NCBI GenBank assembly: GCA_965223725.1
Contig: CBDCXE010000006.1
Coordinates: 610,012-674,011, forward strand
Source of the DNA: Nitrospinota bacterium
GTDB taxonomy: Bacteria > Nitrospinota_A > UBA7883
Direction: 5' to 3'
DNA length: 64,000 nucleotides
Positions within the stretch are counted from its first letter, which is position 1; every line of letters begins with the position of its first letter. Of this stretch, positions 766 to 4,228 are shown piece by piece. The position numbers and the translations under genes were made by a program. The notes beneath the pieces are model-generated. The model was given only the letters and a program-made list of their open reading frames with translations. It ran no database searches and was not told the origin of the DNA.

Positions 766-1443
766 CTATTTTGGTTTAGAGCCGAGTATGAAAAACTGTT
801 TTCCTAGAAGAGGCCAGATCAGTGGGATTCGAAGATAAAGGGCTATGAGGGCTGGATGTTTTGGAAACCGCGATTTAGTAGAATAAGGTACAAACCGGTC
901 TATTAATCGATCAACACTAAATCCAGATTTCAGGAACGCTTCGGCGCACGATAAATGTGATAAAGGCAGATGATGGTCATAAAAATCCCAATATTGGCCT
1001 GGGACGTACCTGATATTCGGTTGTAAAGCCATAAATCGACCACCCGGTTCGAGGATACGTAAAACTTCCGCCAAAAGTGTATCAAAGGTCTTTTTGTCTG
1101 GCAAATGCTCGAAAAAATTACTGGTAAATACAACATTGACATCCTCATCCTTAATGAATGAGAGATCTGTTGCGGAGCCTAAATGAAAAGTTACATCAGG
1201 ACCAACAGATAAGGCGGAATCAGGGTTTAAATCCACGGCAAGTTTTTTCCCTGCGTTAATATGTCTGCTGAACTCCCCATATCCTGACGCCAAATCCAGA
1301 AGCGTGTCGCTTGGATTGATATACTGCTGGAAAAATTTTTCGCACAACACTTTCCAAACCATATCCTTTTCGAGTTTCTCCTTTTCAGAGAACCTGTGCC
1401 GATAGAGAACATCTACCTTCTCCACTGCTCTATCGCTCCACAC
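766..1443 (-). CDS. class I SAM-dependent methyltransferase
   Basis: Motif I-like VLDLASGYGEF followed by an acidic loop (Rossmann MTase fold). 225 aa. 14-nt overlap with the upstream GT2 gene, which suggests an operon. Confidence 0.7.
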   Translation of the reverse strand: MWSDRAVEKVDVLYRHRFSEKEKLEKDMVWKVLCEKFFQQYINPSDTLLDLASGYGEFSRHINAGKKLAVDLNPDSALSVGPDVTFHLGSATDLSFIKDEDVNVVFTSNFFEHLPDKKTFDTLLAEVLRILEPGGRFMALQPNIRYVPGQYWDFYDHHLPLSHLSCAEAFLKSGFSVDRLIDRFVPYSTKSRFPKHPALIALYLRIPLIWPLLGKQFFILGSKPK

Positions 1444-2146
1444 GCTCGTAATCAGCAGAAAAAATATTTTTCCATATTTTTAGCATATCTTTAATAGTAG
1501 CCAAGATATTTTTTACAGACACACTGTTACCTTGCCCAAAAGTTCGTGGAAAGGTCTGTATGCCAACCTGCCCGACCTGGTATCCTTTGAGCATGGATTT
1601 AATAGCTATTTCGGCGCCAATAAACGGGCTGTCAGATTCAAGCTTTATATCATCCGCGACTTTCTTTTTCATCATTCGCAGACCGGTGGAAATATCGCGA
1701 AAATGGGTGCGAAAAAGGAATCTTAATATGACATTATAGACCCAGGAGACAAAAATTCTCCAGTTCGAATAAATCTTCTTATAACGAAAGGTTATTATGA
1801 GATCATAATGATCTTTGACCAGAAAAATTTTGTTAAACTCGCCCACATCATACTGGTTATCTCCATCAAGCATTAATATCCACTCGTATTGACACGCGTT
1901 TATTCCTGTTCGAATAGCAGCCCCATAACCTCGGTTTTCCGGGTGATGAATAACTGATATATTTTTATGTTCGCCAGCCAGTTCATCAGCTATCGCGCCT
2001 GATCGATCGGGCGATCCATCATCCACAATAATAACTTCATATGGACAGCCAAGACTCTCAAGCAGGGCAATGGCGTTTTCTGCTACAGTACGGACGGTCC
2101 CCTCATCTCCATATACCGGAAAAAAAAGGCTTGCTGATGTAGGCAT
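1430..2146 (-). CDS. GT2-family polyprenyl-phosphate sugar synthase (Ppm1/ArnC/GtrB-like glycosyltransferase)
   Basis: EVIIVDDGSPD...HPENRGYGAAIRTG...LMLDGDNQYD. This is the typical GT-A DXD layout of dolichyl/undecaprenyl-phosphate hexosyltransferases, and the protein ends in a C-terminal helix. Confidence 0.75.
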   Translation of the reverse strand: MPTSASLFFPVYGDEGTVRTVAENAIALLESLGCPYEVIIVDDGSPDRSGAIADELAGEHKNISVIHHPENRGYGAAIRTGINACQYEWILMLDGDNQYDVGEFNKIFLVKDHYDLIITFRYKKIYSNWRIFVSWVYNVILRFLFRTHFRDISTGLRMMKKKVADDIKLESDSPFIGAEIAIKSMLKGYQVGQVGIQTFPRTFGQGNSVSVKNILATIKDMLKIWKNIFSADYERVER

Positions 2147-2159
2147 AATAATATTTAAC

Positions 2160-2897
2160 CTAAAAATTCATGCGACGGAAAATACTCCATGGTGTCCACT
2201 TTAAAGCAGCGGATATCCACATCCAAAAACTGGGAATATACCATACCCCCCCCTTATTACCTAGGTTATTAACAACCTTCTCTGCAATACGCTCCGGACT
2301 GGCTTTAGGGATAGGAGTAGACATCCCGAATGCCTGGCCAGTGTCGAGATAGCCAACAATGTAAAAAGATACCATTACACCGTATGGAGCAAATCCATGA
2401 CGTATCGACTCGAAAAAACTGGCCAAAGCCCGTTTAGCCGCGCTGTAGTAAATATTTGCATTCCTCCCTCTGGCAGCGGCGATAGAACCAAATCCTACAA
2501 TATCACCTTTGCGCTCTTTTATTATTTTAGGAGAAAAATAAGATATAATTTCGCTCACTGAAGAGAAATTGGCGGCCAATACTTCTATGCCTATAGTTTC
2601 ATCCGGAGGAAATCGATCTTCGTCCCAGGTTGCGCCAATCGGAAATAGCATTCCATTTAGCTCTCCGGTTTTGTCTATCGCCTTCTCAAGTTTACTGAGG
2701 TCAGGGCGGGATGAAGCGTTGAAGGAAAGGGCCACCGGACAAATGGAAACGCCATAGCGTATGGCGCAGTCTGTGGCAAGCGCATCCAGGTCACGCTGGT
2801 CACTGGAGACAATAACCAGGTTGGCTCCTATCCTGGCCAGCGCTACTGTAATTGCTCTTCCGAGGCCTGAAGACGCCCCAACGACAAGGTATGTCAT
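2160..2897 (-). CDS. short-chain dehydrogenase/reductase, DprE2-like (polyprenyl-phospho-2-keto-sugar 2-reductase)
   Basis: N-terminal VVGASSGLGRAIT dinucleotide motif. YSAAKRAL matches the catalytic YxxxK. The C-terminal WSIFRRM tail resembles DprE2 RSIFRKL. ATGA 4-nt overlap with the upstream FAD oxidase gene. Confidence 0.7.
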   Translation of the reverse strand: MTYLVVGASSGLGRAITVALARIGANLVIVSSDQRDLDALATDCAIRYGVSICPVALSFNASSRPDLSKLEKAIDKTGELNGMLFPIGATWDEDRFPPDETIGIEVLAANFSSVSEIISYFSPKIIKERKGDIVGFGSIAAARGRNANIYYSAAKRALASFFESIRHGFAPYGVMVSFYIVGYLDTGQAFGMSTPIPKASPERIAEKVVNNLGNKGGVWYIPSFWMWISAALKWTPWSIFRRMNF

Positions 2898-4228
2898 AGT
2901 CCTGCTCTCATAAGTAATTCAGACATAAATACCCTGTTTGGGTCAAGTTTATTAATTCGGTCAATAGTAAGTTCATACTCTGGATAACTGGCAGACACGA
3001 CCTCCTGTGAAAGTCGGGAGTCTTTAATCAGGTTGGGAATTGCTTTATGCTCCAGGCAAAGCTCGTCAAAAGCTGTGAGAAATATCGATGTAGAACTTGT
3101 CTGGGCCATATCAAGCGTAACGCATATCCCAGGGCCTGCAAAGCGAAAACCAGTTTGCAAGCCAGATGATTTTTTTAATGATATCATGACACCAGGAGCA
3201 TTGTGATTAAACAGCAACGCTTCCAAAAGTTCAAGGAATGCCCCTGCTTTTTCATCAGTTATAATTACCTGCGCTTCCGCCAAACCACGCTTGCCATAGG
3301 CTAAAAAATAATATGGGTTGGCGGCGAAAGGAAAAGTTGATGCAAATAACGATATATTGTTCGTAGAAGTTTTTTTCTCTTCTTGATGCAAATAAAATTT
3401 TAAAGCTGCATTTCTCAATGGGCTGGCCCAAAGGGAGATAGGTGAAATAGAGCGAGCTCGAGCGGTGATGGGTCGGTATGAGGGTGGAGATGTGAATTTA
3501 CCATTTCCCTCTGCTGGTTCACCTGTATACAAAAATCCTCGACCGAATAATCCTTTCGTGGGAGACGCAACATGGAATGTATAGGCAAAATTGGAAGAAG
3601 AAACAGCGCTCGAACGTAATTGTTCCAAACCTTCTGTCAATGAGTTTAGTGAACTGCGATGGAGAAGAGTCTTTTCTCCCTTTTTAATTTGTTCAAGACG
3701 AAGAGTGGCGCTTACGATAATTCCTGTGGAGCCATAACCACCACAGGTCAAATCGAAAAGTTCCTTGTTTTCTTCTTCCGACAACGTAATAAGACCATGA
3801 GCAGGATGATAGAGGACTAATGAGATTACACAAGAATGAAAGCTTCCTGCAACTCCAAAATTTTTTCCGTTTACATCTGCAGCAATGCAACCTCCAATAG
3901 TGATATCTGGATAGCCAGGTTGGACACCAAGGGCAAGCCCACGCCGGGAGGTGGCGCCTAAAAGTTCCCCCAGGGTTATACCAGCCTCAACAGTGACTGT
4001 TTTATTATTTTCATCCAGGAAAAGGATTCTGGAAAAAGAACGCATGGAGACCGTAGTGACACCTTGTCCAAAAGAGGCCGCTGCATAGGAATAGCCGCCA
4101 CCTTGAGCAATATATGGCCCTTTAGCCCACGTTTGGTCAAACACACGGTATCTATCAGGCCGCGCAAAGTCAGAAGAGATAGATATCTGGCCATCGAAAG
4201 ATAAAAATTTGCTTAACTCTGTTTTCAC
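2894..4228 (-). CDS. FAD-linked oxidase, DprE1-like (polyprenyl-phospho-sugar 2-oxidase)
   Basis: GGCIAADVNGKNFGVAGSFHSCV and STGIIVSATLRL match the DprE1 FAD-binding (PCMH) core [19 protein letters not shown] / LTGIIMRATIEM. The C-terminal KDSR...YP...INKLDPNRVFMSELLMRAGL matches the DprE1 C-terminus. Confidence 0.75.
   Translation of the reverse strand: MKTELSKFLSFDGQISISSDFARPDRYRVFDQTWAKGPYIAQGGGYSYAAASFGQGVTTVSMRSFSRILFLDENNKTVTVEAGITLGELLGATSRRGLALGVQPGYPDITIGGCIAADVNGKNFGVAGSFHSCVISLVLYHPAHGLITLSEEENKELFDLTCGGYGSTGIIVSATLRLEQIKKGEKTLLHRSSLNSLTEGLEQLRSSAVSSSNFAYTFHVASPTKGLFGRGFLYTGEPAEGNGKFTSPPSYRPITARARSISPISLWASPLRNAALKFYLHQEEKKTSTNNISLFASTFPFAANPYYFLAYGKRGLAEAQVIITDEKAGAFLELLEALLFNHNAPGVMISLKKSSGLQTGFRFAGPGICVTLDMAQTSSTSIFLTAFDELCLEHKAIPNLIKDSRLSQEVVSASYPEYELTIDRINKLDPNRVFMSELLMRAGL

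What the first reader, a model, noticed from the sequence alone, without database searches (positions are those of the whole stretch)
1430..4228. DprE1/DprE2-like lipid-linked sugar 2'-epimerase pair wired to a GT2 polyprenyl-phosphate sugar synthase, apparently outside the mycolata
A tight minus-strand operon encodes, in order, an FAD-linked oxidase, an SDR and a GT2 enzyme.

The FAD-linked oxidase aligns by eye with mycobacterial DprE1: the FAD core GGxIAxDxxGKNxxxAGSF, the STGII segment and the C-terminal KDSR...KLDPNRVF...L. The SDR carries a DprE2-like C-terminal WSIFRRM tail and YxxxK. The two genes overlap by 4 nt (ATGA), the same DprE1-then-DprE2 order as Rv3790-Rv3791. They are followed within 13 nt by a GT2 enzyme of the Ppm1/ArnC/GtrB type and then by a SAM methyltransferase.

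In mycobacteria DprE1/DprE2 epimerise decaprenyl-phospho-ribose to decaprenyl-phospho-arabinose. The substrate there comes from a UbiA-type PRPP transferase, not a GT2. Here the pair seems to be coupled to a nucleotide-sugar-dependent polyprenyl-phosphate glycosyltransferase. That implies on-lipid 2'-epimerisation of a different polyprenyl-P-sugar, for example P-hexose or P-pentose, in an organism whose core genes look Gram-negative. Such a route is, to my knowledge, not characterised.
Basis: partly seen in the sequence, partly recalled or inferred. Interest (0 to 1): 0.85.

Follow-up and report, generated by a model that had tools for sequence, protein, structure and literature searches.

The report
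DprE1/DprE2-like pair coupled to GT2
A Gram-negative bacterium carries relatives of the two tuberculosis-drug-target enzymes that flip a sugar while it sits on a membrane lipid, here wired to a different sugar-loading enzyme, and the same uncharacterised cassette recurs across more than ten phyla.

Summary
Window 766-4228 (minus strand) encodes a DprE1-like FAD oxidase, a DprE2-like SDR overlapping it by ATGA, a 238-aa GT2 13 nt further on, and a SAM methyltransferase. A 776-aa polytopic membrane protein is transcribed divergently.

The oxidase aligns full-length to DprE1 and keeps its catalytic Lys418, Lys134, Lys367 and Gln336. It belongs to a separate clade with its own invariant pocket residues. 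The predicted GT2 structure matches only polyprenyl/dolichyl-phosphate glycosyltransferases (ArnC, DPMS, GtrB) at the top.

In 85 loci from more than ten phyla, 71 have a GT2 of this kind next to the oxidase. None has a UbiA-type PRPP transferase within 10 kb. Three canonical comparators (M. tuberculosis, Pantoea, Rhizobium) all use UbiA.

Best reading: a periplasmic-glycosylation donor pathway. A nucleotide-sugar-derived polyprenyl-P-sugar is oxidised and re-reduced at C2 on the lipid, probably methylated, then handed to a membrane transferase.

DprE1/E2 homologues outside the mycolata are already known. The GT2 coupling appears undescribed. The sugar, the net stereochemistry and the transferase fold remain unproven.

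The parts
2894..4228 (-). DprE1-like FAD-dependent oxidase (444 aa, GTG start). It belongs to a GT2-linked clade distinct from canonical DprE1.
   Evidence: Pfam FAD_binding_4. NCBIfam DprE1 model NF053785: 160 bits, full-length, below the 500-bit cutoff. PDB DprE1: 94 bits over residues 36-441. K418, K134, K367, Q336, G117 and G133 are conserved. Clade-specific residues are Y58, Y118, Y228, E334, S365 and C385.
2160..2897 (-). DprE2-like short-chain dehydrogenase/reductase (245 aa), translationally coupled to the oxidase by an ATGA overlap.
   Evidence: adh_short. Best NCBIfam model PRK07102 at 119 bits and DprE2 NF053786 at 62 bits, both full-length. The Pantoea UbiA-linked homologue ranks the same two models first. 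The C-terminal LPWxI[FY][KR]R tail is shared. Overlap verified.
1430..2146 (-). GT2 glycosyltransferase (238 aa, no transmembrane helix) of the polyprenyl-phosphate glycosyltransferase class. It is the candidate polyprenyl-P-sugar synthase.
   Evidence: PF00535. DGD motif and 70 invariant columns. It is 62-70% identical across phyla. AF2 model pLDDT 79.9. The top 25 Foldseek PDB hits are all ArnC, DPMS or GtrB, E 3e-16 to 3e-12, against 1e-10 for the next class.
766..1443 (-). Class I SAM-dependent methyltransferase (225 aa), a conserved partner of the GT2.
   Evidence: Methyltransf_11/25. It follows the cassette GT2 in about 28-30 of 85 loci and in 10 of 22 metagenome loci. It is 82-84% identical in two GT2-MT pairs of a related genome.
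4229..4779 (.). AT-rich 551-bp divergent intergenic region between the oxidase operon and the membrane-protein gene. It is presumed to hold the shared promoter region.
   Evidence: Sequence read. Promoter-like hexamers occur on both strands but not above the shuffled expectation.
4780..7110 (+). 776-aa polytopic membrane protein. It has about 10-13 N-terminal TM helices, a periplasmic alpha/beta domain and a C-terminal beta-sandwich. It is the candidate lipid-linked-sugar transferase. The fold family is unassigned.

Best explanation
The locus encodes the donor-making arm and the candidate transferase of an extracytoplasmic (Gtr/Arn-type) glycosylation system with an added on-lipid sugar-editing step.

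Step 1 (inferred from fold and family). The TM-less GT2 transfers a sugar from a housekeeping nucleotide sugar to undecaprenyl phosphate at the cytoplasmic face of the inner membrane. The product is a beta-linked polyprenyl-P-sugar.

Step 2 (inferred from homology and conserved catalytic residues). The DprE1-like flavoenzyme oxidises the 2'-OH next to the anomeric carbon to a 2'-keto intermediate.

Step 3 (inferred). The translationally coupled DprE2-like SDR, held at the membrane by its amphipathic C-terminal tail, reduces the ketone with NAD(P)H from the opposite face. The product is the 2'-epimer.

Step 4 (weakly inferred). The conserved SAM methyltransferase methylates the lipid-linked sugar.

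Step 5 (inferred from context only). After flipping, the divergently encoded 776-aa membrane protein transfers the sugar to a periplasmic glycan acceptor. In other genomes an adjacent MprF-type PF03706 protein is the flippase candidate. No flippase candidate lies in this locus.

The substrate differs from decaprenyl-P-ribose. The oxidase clade has its own invariant pocket residues, and it is never found next to a UbiA-type PRPP transferase. The sugar itself is unknown, beyond needing a free 2-OH.
For: Anatomy and coupling.

Oxidase is DprE1-like:
-.
- Catalytic K418, K134, K367 and Q336 are invariant in 41 clade members.

It is a separate clade:
- Only 24.6% identity (97 bits) to the UbiA-linked Pantoea enzyme. 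The score against M. tuberculosis DprE1 is about the same, 94 bits.
- 160 bits on the DprE1 model, against 353 for the Pantoea enzyme.
- The NJ tree separates the two groups.
- The signatures differ. GT2-linked enzymes have E334 (41/41), S/T365 (41/41) and Y118 (37/41). Mtb, Pantoea and Rhizobium have Q334, V365 and T118.

SDR is DprE2-like.

GT2 is a polyprenyl-P glycosyltransferase:
- By structure.
- The best NCBIfam hits are AglJ, ArnC, PpgS and Dol-P-hexose transferase.

Synteny:
- 52 of 85 loci have the orthologous GT2 within 4 kb, and 19 more have another GT2 adjacent. The ten of these tested gave full-length or partial matches to the PgfS and/or ArnC models, mostly with C-terminal TM helices.
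- Starting instead from the GT2, 14 of 18 metagenome loci with enough upstream sequence carry the oxidase.

No UbiA: a Pfam scan of 59 cluster representatives of all multi-TM neighbours matched UbiA only for the positive control.

Canonical comparators do carry UbiA in the operon: Pantoea and a Rhizobium plasmid.

Partners typical of periplasmic glycosylation sit next to the cassette: PF03706 flippase-like proteins in 15 loci, plus PMT_2, GT87 and Wzy_C proteins.

The membrane protein is homologous to the only transferase candidate in the Pantoea arabinofuranose-type operon.
Against: - There is no biochemical evidence. Neither the sugar, the lipid nor the stereochemical outcome is known.
- The oxidase and SDR score far below the curated DprE1 and DprE2 cutoffs.
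- The window enzyme has Asn where DprE1 and most clade members have His132.
- The GT2 lacks the transmembrane helices of GtrB and ArnC.
- No flippase candidate lies in the window island.
- GT2-MT pairs exist without the oxidase and SDR, so the GT2 product is usable unedited.
- A UbiA-type synthase elsewhere in this genome cannot be excluded from a 64-kb window.
Confidence: 0.6

Rival explanations
1. This is the canonical arabinofuranose pathway. The pair epimerises undecaprenyl-P-ribofuranose made by a UbiA-type PRPP transferase encoded elsewhere in the genome. The adjacent GT2 is an ordinary, unrelated glycan glycosyltransferase.
For: - The oxidase and SDR are homologous to DprE1 and DprE2 over their full length.
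- The membrane protein is 30% identical to one in a UbiA-type operon in Pantoea. A closer relative of that Pantoea protein sits in a GT2-type locus, L033. The transferred sugar could therefore be similar.
- Only 64 kb of this genome is visible.
Against: - No UbiA lies within 10 kb in any of 84 related loci or in the window's island, whereas canonical systems keep it in the operon.
- The clade-specific invariant pocket changes Q334E, V365S/T and T118Y argue for another substrate.
- The GT2 is structurally a polyprenyl-P glycosyltransferase, not a chain-extending GT.
- The GT2 is co-inherited with the pair in 71 of 85 loci.
Confidence: 0.1
2. On-lipid redox editing occurs without simple 2-epimerisation. 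The oxidase makes a polyprenyl-P-ketosugar, which is the substrate for C- or O-methylation by the conserved methyltransferase (or, in other loci, by B12-radical-SAM enzymes). The SDR then reduces it, giving a methyl-branched or otherwise modified sugar.
For: - The methyltransferase is as conserved as the GT2, at 82-84% in the related genome.
- It is present in about a third to a half of loci.
- B12-radical-SAM and extra methyltransferase genes recur in the loci that lack this methyltransferase.
- The window island itself carries a radical SAM/SPASM gene and two further methyltransferases.
Against: - The methyltransferase also accompanies the GT2 where the oxidase and SDR are absent. It therefore does not need a keto intermediate.
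- Many oxidase-SDR-GT2 loci lack it.
- In the only characterised relatives the oxidase/reductase pair gives net epimerisation (PMC11127046).
Confidence: 0.15
3. The GT2 acceptor is not a polyprenyl phosphate. The cassette makes a cytoplasmic or membrane glycolipid or small glycoside that is then oxidised, reduced and methylated. The neighbouring membrane proteins are exporters or unrelated.
For: - The GT2 has no TM helix.
- The membrane partners are heterogeneous and mostly without a family.
- The 776-aa protein is not demonstrably a GT-C.
Against: - The top 25 structural matches are exclusively polyprenyl/dolichyl-P glycosyltransferases, including their juxtamembrane helices.
- TM-less members of this class exist. 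PpgS and human DPM1 are examples (own knowledge), and PpgS is among the NCBIfam hits.
- In 19 loci the GT2 slot is filled by a different GT2. All ten tested matched the ArnC and/or PgfS models, and nine of the ten are 305-414 aa, the length of the TM-anchored enzymes.
- DprE1-type enzymes act on lipid-linked sugars.
Confidence: 0.1
4. The resemblance is superficial. The oxidase is a soluble sugar-lactone or alditol oxidase, and the SDR is a generic FabG-like reductase.
For: - Scores lie below the curated DprE1 and DprE2 cutoffs.
- FabG models score about the same as the DprE2 model, 64 against 62 bits.
Against: - The DprE1 model scores 160 bits over 40-446 of its 449 positions, against 55 bits or less (N-terminal FAD domain only) for the lactone and alditol oxidase models.
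- The nine best PDB hits are DprE1.
- The C-terminal KDSR catalytic lysine is conserved.
- The SDR's best model is the DprE2-type PRK07102, and it carries the DprE2-type tail.
Confidence: 0.02

Closest known systems
M. tuberculosis DprE1/DprE2 (Rv3790/Rv3791) with the UbiA-type synthase Rv3806c: decaprenyl-P-ribose to decaprenyl-P-arabinose
   Same: - FAD oxidase followed by an overlapping SDR gene.
- Full-length homology.
- Catalytic K418, K134, K367 and Q336.
- Amphipathic C-terminal tail on the SDR.
- Presumed two-step oxidation and reduction at C2' of a lipid-linked sugar.
   Different: - About 25% identity, and scores far below the family cutoffs.
- Different invariant pocket residues (Y58, Y118, Y228, E334, S365, C385). 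There is no Cys387, so no benzothiazinone target.
- The substrate supplier is a GT2 using a nucleotide sugar, not a PRPP-dependent UbiA enzyme.
Gram-negative PRPP-dependent pentofuranose three-component systems (C. youngae ORF15/ORF14/ORF12, with DprE1/E2 homologues for Araf; P. aeruginosa pilin arabinosylation), Kelly et al. 2024, PMC11127046
   Same: - Periplasmic glycosylation logic with an auxiliary on-lipid epimerase.
- Found in Gram-negatives.
- The 776-aa membrane protein is homologous to the one in such an operon in Pantoea sp. At-9b.
   Different: - Those systems start from PRPP through a HAD-UbiA synthase, which is present in the operon.
- Here and in 84 related loci there is no UbiA, and a GT2 sits in its place.
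- The authors state they know of no other epimerases in side-chain glycosylation systems.
GtrA/GtrB/GtrC, ArnC/ArnT and PgfS-type three-component glycosylation
   Same: A GT2 polyprenyl-P glycosyltransferase makes the donor. The window GT2 is structurally closest to ArnC, DPMS and GtrB. In 19 related loci the GT2 slot is filled by a different GT2. All ten tested matched the ArnC and/or PgfS models.
   Different: - Those systems have no FAD oxidase/SDR editing step on the lipid-linked sugar.
- The window GT2 lacks TM helices.
- There is no GtrA in the window.
- The transferase candidate is not a recognisable GT-C.
M. tuberculosis methylthioxylose pathway (MtxS/Rv0539 GT2 plus a GT-C)
   Same: A GT2 enzyme generates a polyprenyl-P-linked donor of an unusual sugar for extracytoplasmic transfer (PMC12088412; PMC11127046).
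   Different: No DprE1/DprE2-like pair is reported there. The donor derives from 5'-methylthioadenosine. Sequence relatedness of MtxS to the window GT2 could not be tested.
On-lipid sugar editing by deacetylation (Francisella FlmF2/NaxD, mycobacterial PpgS route, ArnD). Recalled from own knowledge, not tested here.
   Same: A GT2 loads a sugar onto polyprenyl-P, and a second enzyme edits it on the lipid before a periplasmic transferase uses it.
   Different: The edit there is hydrolytic (deformylation or deacetylation), not a redox epimerisation.

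Membership tests
[quoted passage not shown] | Two-domain VAO-type flavoprotein that aligns to DprE1 over the whole length | tested here: met
   Model positions 40-446 of 449. PDB DprE1 aligned to residues 36-441.
[quoted passage not shown] | Score above the curated equivalog cutoff (500 bits) | tested here: not met
   160 bits. The UbiA-linked Pantoea homologue reaches 353 bits.
[quoted passage not shown] | Catalytic Lys418 with Lys134, Lys367 and Gln336 | tested here: met
   Invariant in the window protein and in 41 clade members. His132 is Asn in the window protein.
[quoted passage not shown] | Pocket residues shared by ribose-acting enzymes (R58, T118, Q334, V365, Y415, A417) | tested here: not met
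   Replaced by Y58, Y118, E334, S365, N415 and I417. E334 and S/T365 occur in 41 of 41 clade members.
[quoted passage not shown] | Genomic coupling to a UbiA-type polyprenyl-P phosphoribosyl synthase | tested here: not met
   None in the window's 1-12 kb island (Pfam on its ORFs of 80 aa or more; the only multi-TM ORF is the 776-aa protein). None within 10 kb in 84 loci. Present in Pantoea and Rhizobium.
[quoted passage not shown] | Oxidation of polyprenyl-P-ribose at C2' | not testable with these tools
   Needs an enzyme assay.
DprE2 (NF053786) and its Gram-negative counterpart PRK07102 | Classical SDR with the GxxxGxG and YxxxK motifs, aligned full-length | tested here: met
   GASSGLG and YSAAK. 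PRK07102 aligned to residues 3-244, DprE2 to 3-244.
DprE2 (NF053786) and its Gram-negative counterpart PRK07102 | Score above the curated cutoffs (250 and 267 bits) | tested here: not met
   62 and 119 bits.
DprE2 (NF053786) and its Gram-negative counterpart PRK07102 | Amphipathic C-terminal tail, and a gene overlapping the oxidase gene | tested here: met
   The tail LPWxI[FY][KR]R is shared with the Pantoea homologue and about 25 clade members. ATGA overlap.
Polyisoprenyl-phosphate glycosyltransferases of GT2 (GtrB/ArnC/DPMS/PpgS) | GT-A fold with a DxD motif, and closest structural similarity to members of this class | tested here: met
   PF00535. DGD motif. The top 25 Foldseek hits are ArnC, DPMS or GtrB, with TM-score up to 0.76.
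Polyisoprenyl-phosphate glycosyltransferases of GT2 (GtrB/ArnC/DPMS/PpgS) | C-terminal transmembrane helices (GtrB/ArnC subtype) | tested here: not met
   No hydrophobic segment. This resembles TM-less members such as PpgS (own knowledge).
Polyisoprenyl-phosphate glycosyltransferases of GT2 (GtrB/ArnC/DPMS/PpgS) | Transfer of a sugar from an NDP-sugar to polyprenyl phosphate | not testable with these tools
   Needs an enzyme assay.
GT-C glycosyltransferases (for the 776-aa protein) | Polytopic N-terminal domain (7-13 TM), with a conserved acidic residue in the first extracytoplasmic loop, plus a periplasmic domain | tested here: inconclusive
   About 10-13 helices, with D34 nearly invariant after TM1, and a large soluble C-terminal part. 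Topology was not determined.
GT-C glycosyltransferases (for the 776-aa protein) | Fold or profile similarity to known GT-C families | tested here: not met
Three-component extracytoplasmic glycosylation system | Donor synthase, flippase and periplasmic transferase encoded together | tested here: inconclusive
   The synthase is present. No flippase-like ORF lies in the window island, though a PF03706 protein sits directly upstream of the oxidase in 13 related loci and PF03706 proteins occur in 15. The transferase is assigned by context only.

The most novel reading that the evidence does not exclude
This may be a widespread, unrecognised branch of periplasmic glycosylation. About 280 clusters at 50% identity carry it, in more than ten phyla. 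These include SAR11, Nitrospira, Acidobacteriota, Melainabacteria and one archaeal MAG. In this branch, ordinary nucleotide-sugar-derived undecaprenyl-P-sugars are 2-epimerised on the lipid by a dedicated DprE1/DprE2 sister clade, and often methylated. The products would be cell-surface sugars with no nucleotide-activated precursor. They would be delivered by families of polytopic transferases that have no known fold relatives.
Probability: 0.5. Interest if true: 0.8.

Novelty: new variant of a known kind. Interest (0 to 1): 0.7.

Why it matters
On-lipid 2'-epimerisation by DprE1/DprE2 is known only for polyprenyl-P-ribose made from PRPP. It is the target of leading anti-tuberculosis drug candidates.

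A sister clade fed by GT2 nucleotide-sugar transferases would extend this chemistry to other sugars. It could explain the origin of rare surface sugars that lack a nucleotide-activated form. It would add an editing module to the Gtr/Arn paradigm of surface-glycan diversification.

It would also flag thousands of genes now auto-annotated as 'decaprenylphospho-beta-D-ribofuranose 2-oxidase' as probably misnamed.

The hypothesis is directly testable with four small proteins. The cassette occurs in environmentally dominant lineages such as SAR11. It comes with several families of large membrane proteins of unknown fold, which are candidate new glycosyltransferases.

Tried and rejected
- **Organism identity.** Exact-sequence look-up of window proteins returned singletons without names, and RpoB has no relative at 90% identity. 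The oxidase gene was not on record in the contig index. It is Gammaproteobacteria-like from the thrU-tyrU-glyT-thrT-tufB and rpoBC order and from a YidC with a periplasmic domain. It may be Legionellales-like. One MEM homologue is from a Legionellales MAG. The related contig carries ankyrin-repeat and Fic genes.
- **Single-sequence search for UbiA.** phmmer with the Pantoea HAD-UbiA found nothing in the loci. The same test with the Pantoea PF03706 protein also found nothing, although PF03706 proteins are present there, so this approach was rejected as insensitive. It was replaced by a Pfam scan of all multi-TM neighbours.
- **BLASTP of the 776-aa protein against the large membrane proteins of L001 and L004.** No similarity was found. 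The membrane partners are therefore heterogeneous.
- **A conserved nucleotide-sugar synthesis gene that would name the sugar.** None is conserved. A GDP-mannose-4,6-dehydratase-like gene occurs in only 8 loci, and not in the window.
- **Promoter and terminator scan.** Nothing above the shuffled expectation.
- **Plasmid collection.** It holds only canonical UbiA-linked relatives at under 30% identity.
- **Literature.** Five full-text searches found no description of a GT2-coupled DprE1-like system.
- **Gene caller.** My simple gene caller mis-called some high-GC loci. Counts were therefore taken from ORF-level HMMER hits. In the printout the labels 'GT2' and 'SDR' are swapped.

Full report
**1. 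What is in the window**

The minus strand of window 766-4228 carries four tightly packed ORFs:
- a 444-aa FAD_binding_4 protein (4228..2894);
- a 245-aa short-chain dehydrogenase (2897..2160);
- a 238-aa family-2 glycosyltransferase (2146..1430);
- a 225-aa class I SAM methyltransferase (1443..766).

The oxidase stop and SDR start share ATGA. Thirteen nucleotides separate the SDR stop from the GT2 ATG. The GT2 stop overlaps the GTG start of the methyltransferase.

A 776-aa polytopic membrane protein with no Pfam or NCBIfam family (4780..7110) is transcribed divergently across a 551-bp AT-rich spacer.

The first 12 kb of the window have 36-45% GC, against about 50% for the rest. They end at a tRNA-Thr/Tyr/Gly/Thr cluster followed by tufB, secE-nusG, rplKAJL and rpoBC. 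This segment looks like an acquired glycan-modification island in a Gammaproteobacteria-type chromosome. The chromosome also encodes a YidC with a periplasmic domain, polA, rpoD-dnaG and a mur/fts cluster.

The island further encodes a radical SAM/SPASM enzyme, a CmcI/rhamnosyl-O-methyltransferase-like protein, another methyltransferase and two sulfotransferase-like proteins.

**2. The oxidase and the SDR are DprE1-like and DprE2-like**

The oxidase:
- It matches the NCBIfam DprE1 equivalog model over positions 40-446 of 449 (160 bits).
- Lactone, alditol and glycolate oxidase models reach 55 bits or less, and only on the N-terminal FAD domain.
- Its nine best PDB matches are all DprE1, aligned over residues 36-441.

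The SDR:
- Its best model is PRK07102 (119 bits, full-length), followed among specific models by DprE2 (62 bits, full-length).
- The same two models, in the same order, describe the DprE2 homologue of a canonical UbiA-linked operon in Pantoea, at 258 and 160 bits.
- Its C-terminal tail, Y.P..W...LPWxI[FY][KR]R[LM]xF, is shared with that Pantoea protein and with about 25 clade members.

**3. The oxidase belongs to a separate clade**

- The window oxidase is 24.6% identical (97 bits) to the Pantoea UbiA-linked enzyme. Its score against M. tuberculosis DprE1 is about the same, 94 bits.
- On the DprE1 model it scores 160 bits, against 353 for the Pantoea enzyme. Both are below the 500-bit cutoff.
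- I rebuilt M. tuberculosis DprE1 residues 49-457 from the printed alignment. I aligned them with the Pantoea and Rhizobium enzymes and 41 members of the window's clade.
- G117, G133, K134, Q336, K367 and the catalytic K418 are invariant everywhere.
- The three UbiA-linked enzymes share R58, T118, Q334, V365, Y415 and A417. The GT2-linked enzymes have Y/L58, Y118 (37/41), E334 (41/41), S/T365 (41/41), N/S/H415 and I/V417. Among the 28 cassette-type members Y228 is invariant and C385 nearly invariant.
- Cys387, the benzothiazinone target (own knowledge), is Thr or Ala. The window protein alone has Asn at His132.
- A neighbour-joining tree puts all GT2-linked sequences apart from the M. tuberculosis and Pantoea enzymes.

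The catalytic machinery is kept, while the pocket is remodelled in a clade-invariant way. This is what a change of substrate would produce.

**4. The GT2 is a polyprenyl-phosphate glycosyltransferase by structure**

- The GT2 family is strikingly conserved, at 62-70% identity across phyla, with 3113 hits and 70 invariant columns including DGD.
- An AlphaFold2 model (pLDDT 79.9) was searched against the PDB. The top 25 matches are exclusively ArnC, dolichyl-P-mannose synthase and GtrB (E 3e-16 to 3e-12, TM-score up to 0.76). Other GT2 enzymes start at 1e-10.
- NCBIfam's best partial hits are AglJ, ArnC, PpgS and a Dol-P-hexose transferase.
- The protein has no TM helix, like PpgS or human DPM1 (own knowledge).

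**5. The coupling is conserved and UbiA is absent**

Sources of related loci:
- A scan of species-representative genomes with an oxidase profile returned 80 loci (32-48% identity). They come from Acidobacteriota, Nitrospira, Chloroflexi, Rokubacteria, Planctomycetota, Bdellovibrionota, Melainabacteria, one Thaumarchaeota MAG and the alpha-, beta-, gamma- and delta-proteobacteria. The alphaproteobacteria include six Pelagibacteraceae genomes.
- Four more loci came from exact-protein look-ups.

Results from ORF-level HMMER searches and clustering:
- The SDR follows the oxidase in roughly 61-74 of the 85 loci, depending on the count, usually with a 4-nt overlap.
- The orthologous GT2 (at least 200 bits) lies within 4 kb in 52 of 85 loci. 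It follows the SDR in 46, and precedes the oxidase in the six Pelagibacteraceae loci.
- In 19 further loci a different GT2 is adjacent. Of the ten tested, most match PgfS and ArnC over their full length, including the C-terminal TM region. The others, among them a short cassette-type Pelagibacter GT2 included for comparison, give partial or weaker matches.
- The methyltransferase follows the GT2 in about 28-30 loci.

Other observations:
- Pfam-annotated gene calls for independent contigs show the string polytopic membrane protein (PMT_2 or no family), FAD oxidase, SDR, GT2, methyltransferase.
- A ~320-aa PF03706 (MprF flippase-domain) protein sits directly upstream of the oxidase in 13 loci. 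PF03706 proteins occur in 15 loci in all.
- Starting instead from the GT2 in metagenomes, 14 of 18 orthologues with enough upstream sequence are preceded by the oxidase, and 19 of 29 by the SDR.

The UbiA test:
- Single-sequence phmmer with a UbiA seed proved insensitive.
- I therefore scanned one representative of each of the 59 clusters of multi-TM neighbours (200-560 aa) against Pfam, with the Pantoea HAD-UbiA as a positive control. Only the control matched UbiA. The neighbours matched PMT_2, GT87, Wzy_C, PF03706, MatE and others.
- Canonical systems carry the synthase in the operon. In Pantoea sp. At-9b the order is HAD-UbiA, FAD, SDR, membrane protein, epimerase, DAO, GtrA, PF03706. On Rhizobium plasmid pCC511_2 it is UbiA, GtrA, FAD, SDR, two hypothetical proteins, GT87.
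- All 46 plasmid-borne relatives are under 30% identical to the window oxidase.

**6. The module is composite**

A related metagenomic contig has a homologue of the 776-aa protein at 56% identity. The same contig carries two GT2-methyltransferase pairs, 82-84% identical to the window's. Neither pair has an oxidase or SDR. One is preceded by a GtrA gene, and the other is next to a 9-TM protein.

The GT2 (plus or minus the methyltransferase) is therefore a self-sufficient donor module. The oxidase-SDR pair is an editing add-on, present in about two-thirds to three-quarters of cases.

**7. The membrane protein**

- The 776-aa protein has 78 homologues, none with a Pfam domain.
- Its AlphaFold2 model is confident (pLDDT 90.4, pTM 0.87). 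It shows an N-terminal bundle of about 13 helices (1-345), an alpha/beta domain (about 380-620) and a C-terminal beta-sandwich (about 640-776).
- D34, just after TM1, is nearly invariant.
- A family profile matches only a beta domain of an N-acetylmuramoyl-L-alanine amidase, through its C-terminal part (E = 1.2e-5). This suggests a glycan-binding module, as described for the GT136 enzyme ORF12 (PMC11127046).
- Its role as the transferase rests on context. It is the only candidate in the Pantoea arabinofuranose-type operon (30% identity over the full length). Family members lie in 13-14 GT2-type loci.
- The Pantoea protein's closest relative in my set (568 bits by phmmer) sits in a GT2-type locus, L033. 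This hints that the sugars delivered by the two routes may be similar. That is a lead, not a result.
- Most other membrane partners of the cassette also lack any family.

**8. Mechanism proposed**

Shown here: gene anatomy, homology, conservation of catalytic residues, structural class of the GT2, conserved synteny, and absence of UbiA.

Inferred:
- The GT2 loads a sugar from a housekeeping NDP-sugar onto undecaprenyl-P. No dedicated sugar-nucleotide gene is conserved.
- The flavoenzyme oxidises C2'-OH, and the SDR reduces the ketone to the epimer.
- The methyltransferase methylates the lipid-linked sugar.
- After flipping, the membrane protein transfers the sugar to a periplasmic glycan.

The sugar must have a free 2-OH, which excludes 2-acetamido sugars. 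Beyond that it is unknown. No flippase candidate is encoded in the window island.

**9. Comparison with the literature**

- DprE1/E2 homologues in Gram-negatives are already described for arabinofuranose, always downstream of a PRPP-dependent UbiA-type synthase. The authors state they know of no other epimerases in side-chain glycosylation systems (PMC11127046). The accompanying commentary adds nothing on GT2 coupling (PMC11194591).
- The M. tuberculosis methylthioxylose route uses a GT2 (MtxS) to make a lipid-linked pentofuranose donor, but no DprE1-like pair is reported.
- Five full-text searches found no description of a GT2-coupled DprE1/DprE2-like system. The library does not cover subscription journals, so prior description cannot be excluded.
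- Source databases name these proteins 'decaprenylphospho-beta-D-ribofuranose 2-oxidase' or 'FAD-binding oxidoreductase'.
- The clade comprises about 280 clusters at 50% identity at E <= 1e-30.

**10. Verdict**

Two corrections apply. Occurrence outside the mycolata is not new in itself. The unit is a composite cassette made of the GT2-methyltransferase core, the oxidase-SDR editor and a membrane partner.

I class it as a new variant of a known kind: lipid-linked sugar epimerisation grafted onto Gtr/Arn-type periplasmic glycosylation. Interest is 0.7. My confidence in the proposed mechanism is 0.6.

The main uncertainties are the identity of the sugar, whether the net result is epimerisation, and whether the 776-aa protein is the transferase.

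Noticed in passing
window 1-12100: This is a low-GC island (36-45% against about 50%) abutting a tRNA-Thr/Tyr/Gly/Thr cluster. Beyond the cassette it carries a radical SAM/SPASM enzyme (7323-8270), a CmcI/rhamnosyl-O-methyltransferase-like gene (8368-9009), another methyltransferase (9188-10036), two sulfotransferase-like genes (10270-12032) and an unassignable 220-aa ORF (29-691). It suggests a methylated and possibly sulfated surface glycan.
   Followed up: partly
L087 10001-11393 and L088 10001-11381 (ENA ERZ26222911 contig ctg1020737): A related genome carries two extra GT2-methyltransferase pairs, 82-84% identical to the window's, without the oxidase or SDR. The same contig has a 56%-identical homologue of the 776-aa protein at a third site (L085). 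There it lies next to ATP-grasp and OEP genes.
   Followed up: partly
L086 6529-15999 (Pantoea sp. At-9b CP002433): A canonical-looking pentofuranose operon: HAD-UbiA fusion, DprE1-like, DprE2-like, 792-aa homologue of the window membrane protein, NAD-epimerase, DAO-type flavoprotein, GtrA, PF03706. It has two extra redox enzymes and two flippase candidates, none of them explained.
   Followed up: no
L049, L054, L061, L068, L070, L077 (Pelagibacteraceae single-cell and MAG genomes): SAR11 genomes carry the trio in a different order: a 233-aa GT2, then the oxidase, then the SDR. It lies next to 11-12-TM proteins. This puts the pathway in one of the most abundant marine lineages.
   Followed up: no
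L006, L003/L013, L056, L062, L063, L071-L073: In loci that lack the cassette methyltransferase, a B12-binding radical SAM enzyme (about 515 aa) recurs near the oxidase. A different 249-aa methyltransferase recurs too, in a partly overlapping set of loci. This hints at C-methylation chemistry.
   Followed up: no
window 6720-7110 (residues about 649-762 of the 776-aa protein): The C-terminal beta-sandwich of the membrane protein family matches a domain (residues 189-295) of an N-acetylmuramoyl-L-alanine amidase, PDB 8c4d, at E = 1.2e-5. It may be a glycan- or cell-wall-binding module.
   Followed up: partly
window 3869-3871 (oxidase residue Asn120): The window oxidase has Asn at the position of DprE1 His132. 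In the 41 clade sequences compared, 36 have His and 4 have Gln.
   Followed up: no
window 41708-44305: An 865-aa ORF on the plus strand has no Pfam family at E <= 1e-5. It lies between core genes.
   Followed up: no
L087 11726-13867 and 15615-15905: The related contig encodes a 713-aa protein made almost entirely of ankyrin repeats, and a Fic-domain protein, next to one GT2-MT pair. One homologue of the membrane protein comes from a Legionellales MAG. The lineage may be host-associated.
   Followed up: no
L058 (Thaumarchaeota archaeon MAG JAGWFT010000001): An archaeal MAG has the oxidase-SDR pair (36% identity) with no GT2 detected within four genes. This could be lateral transfer or a binning artefact. 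It was not examined.
   Followed up: no
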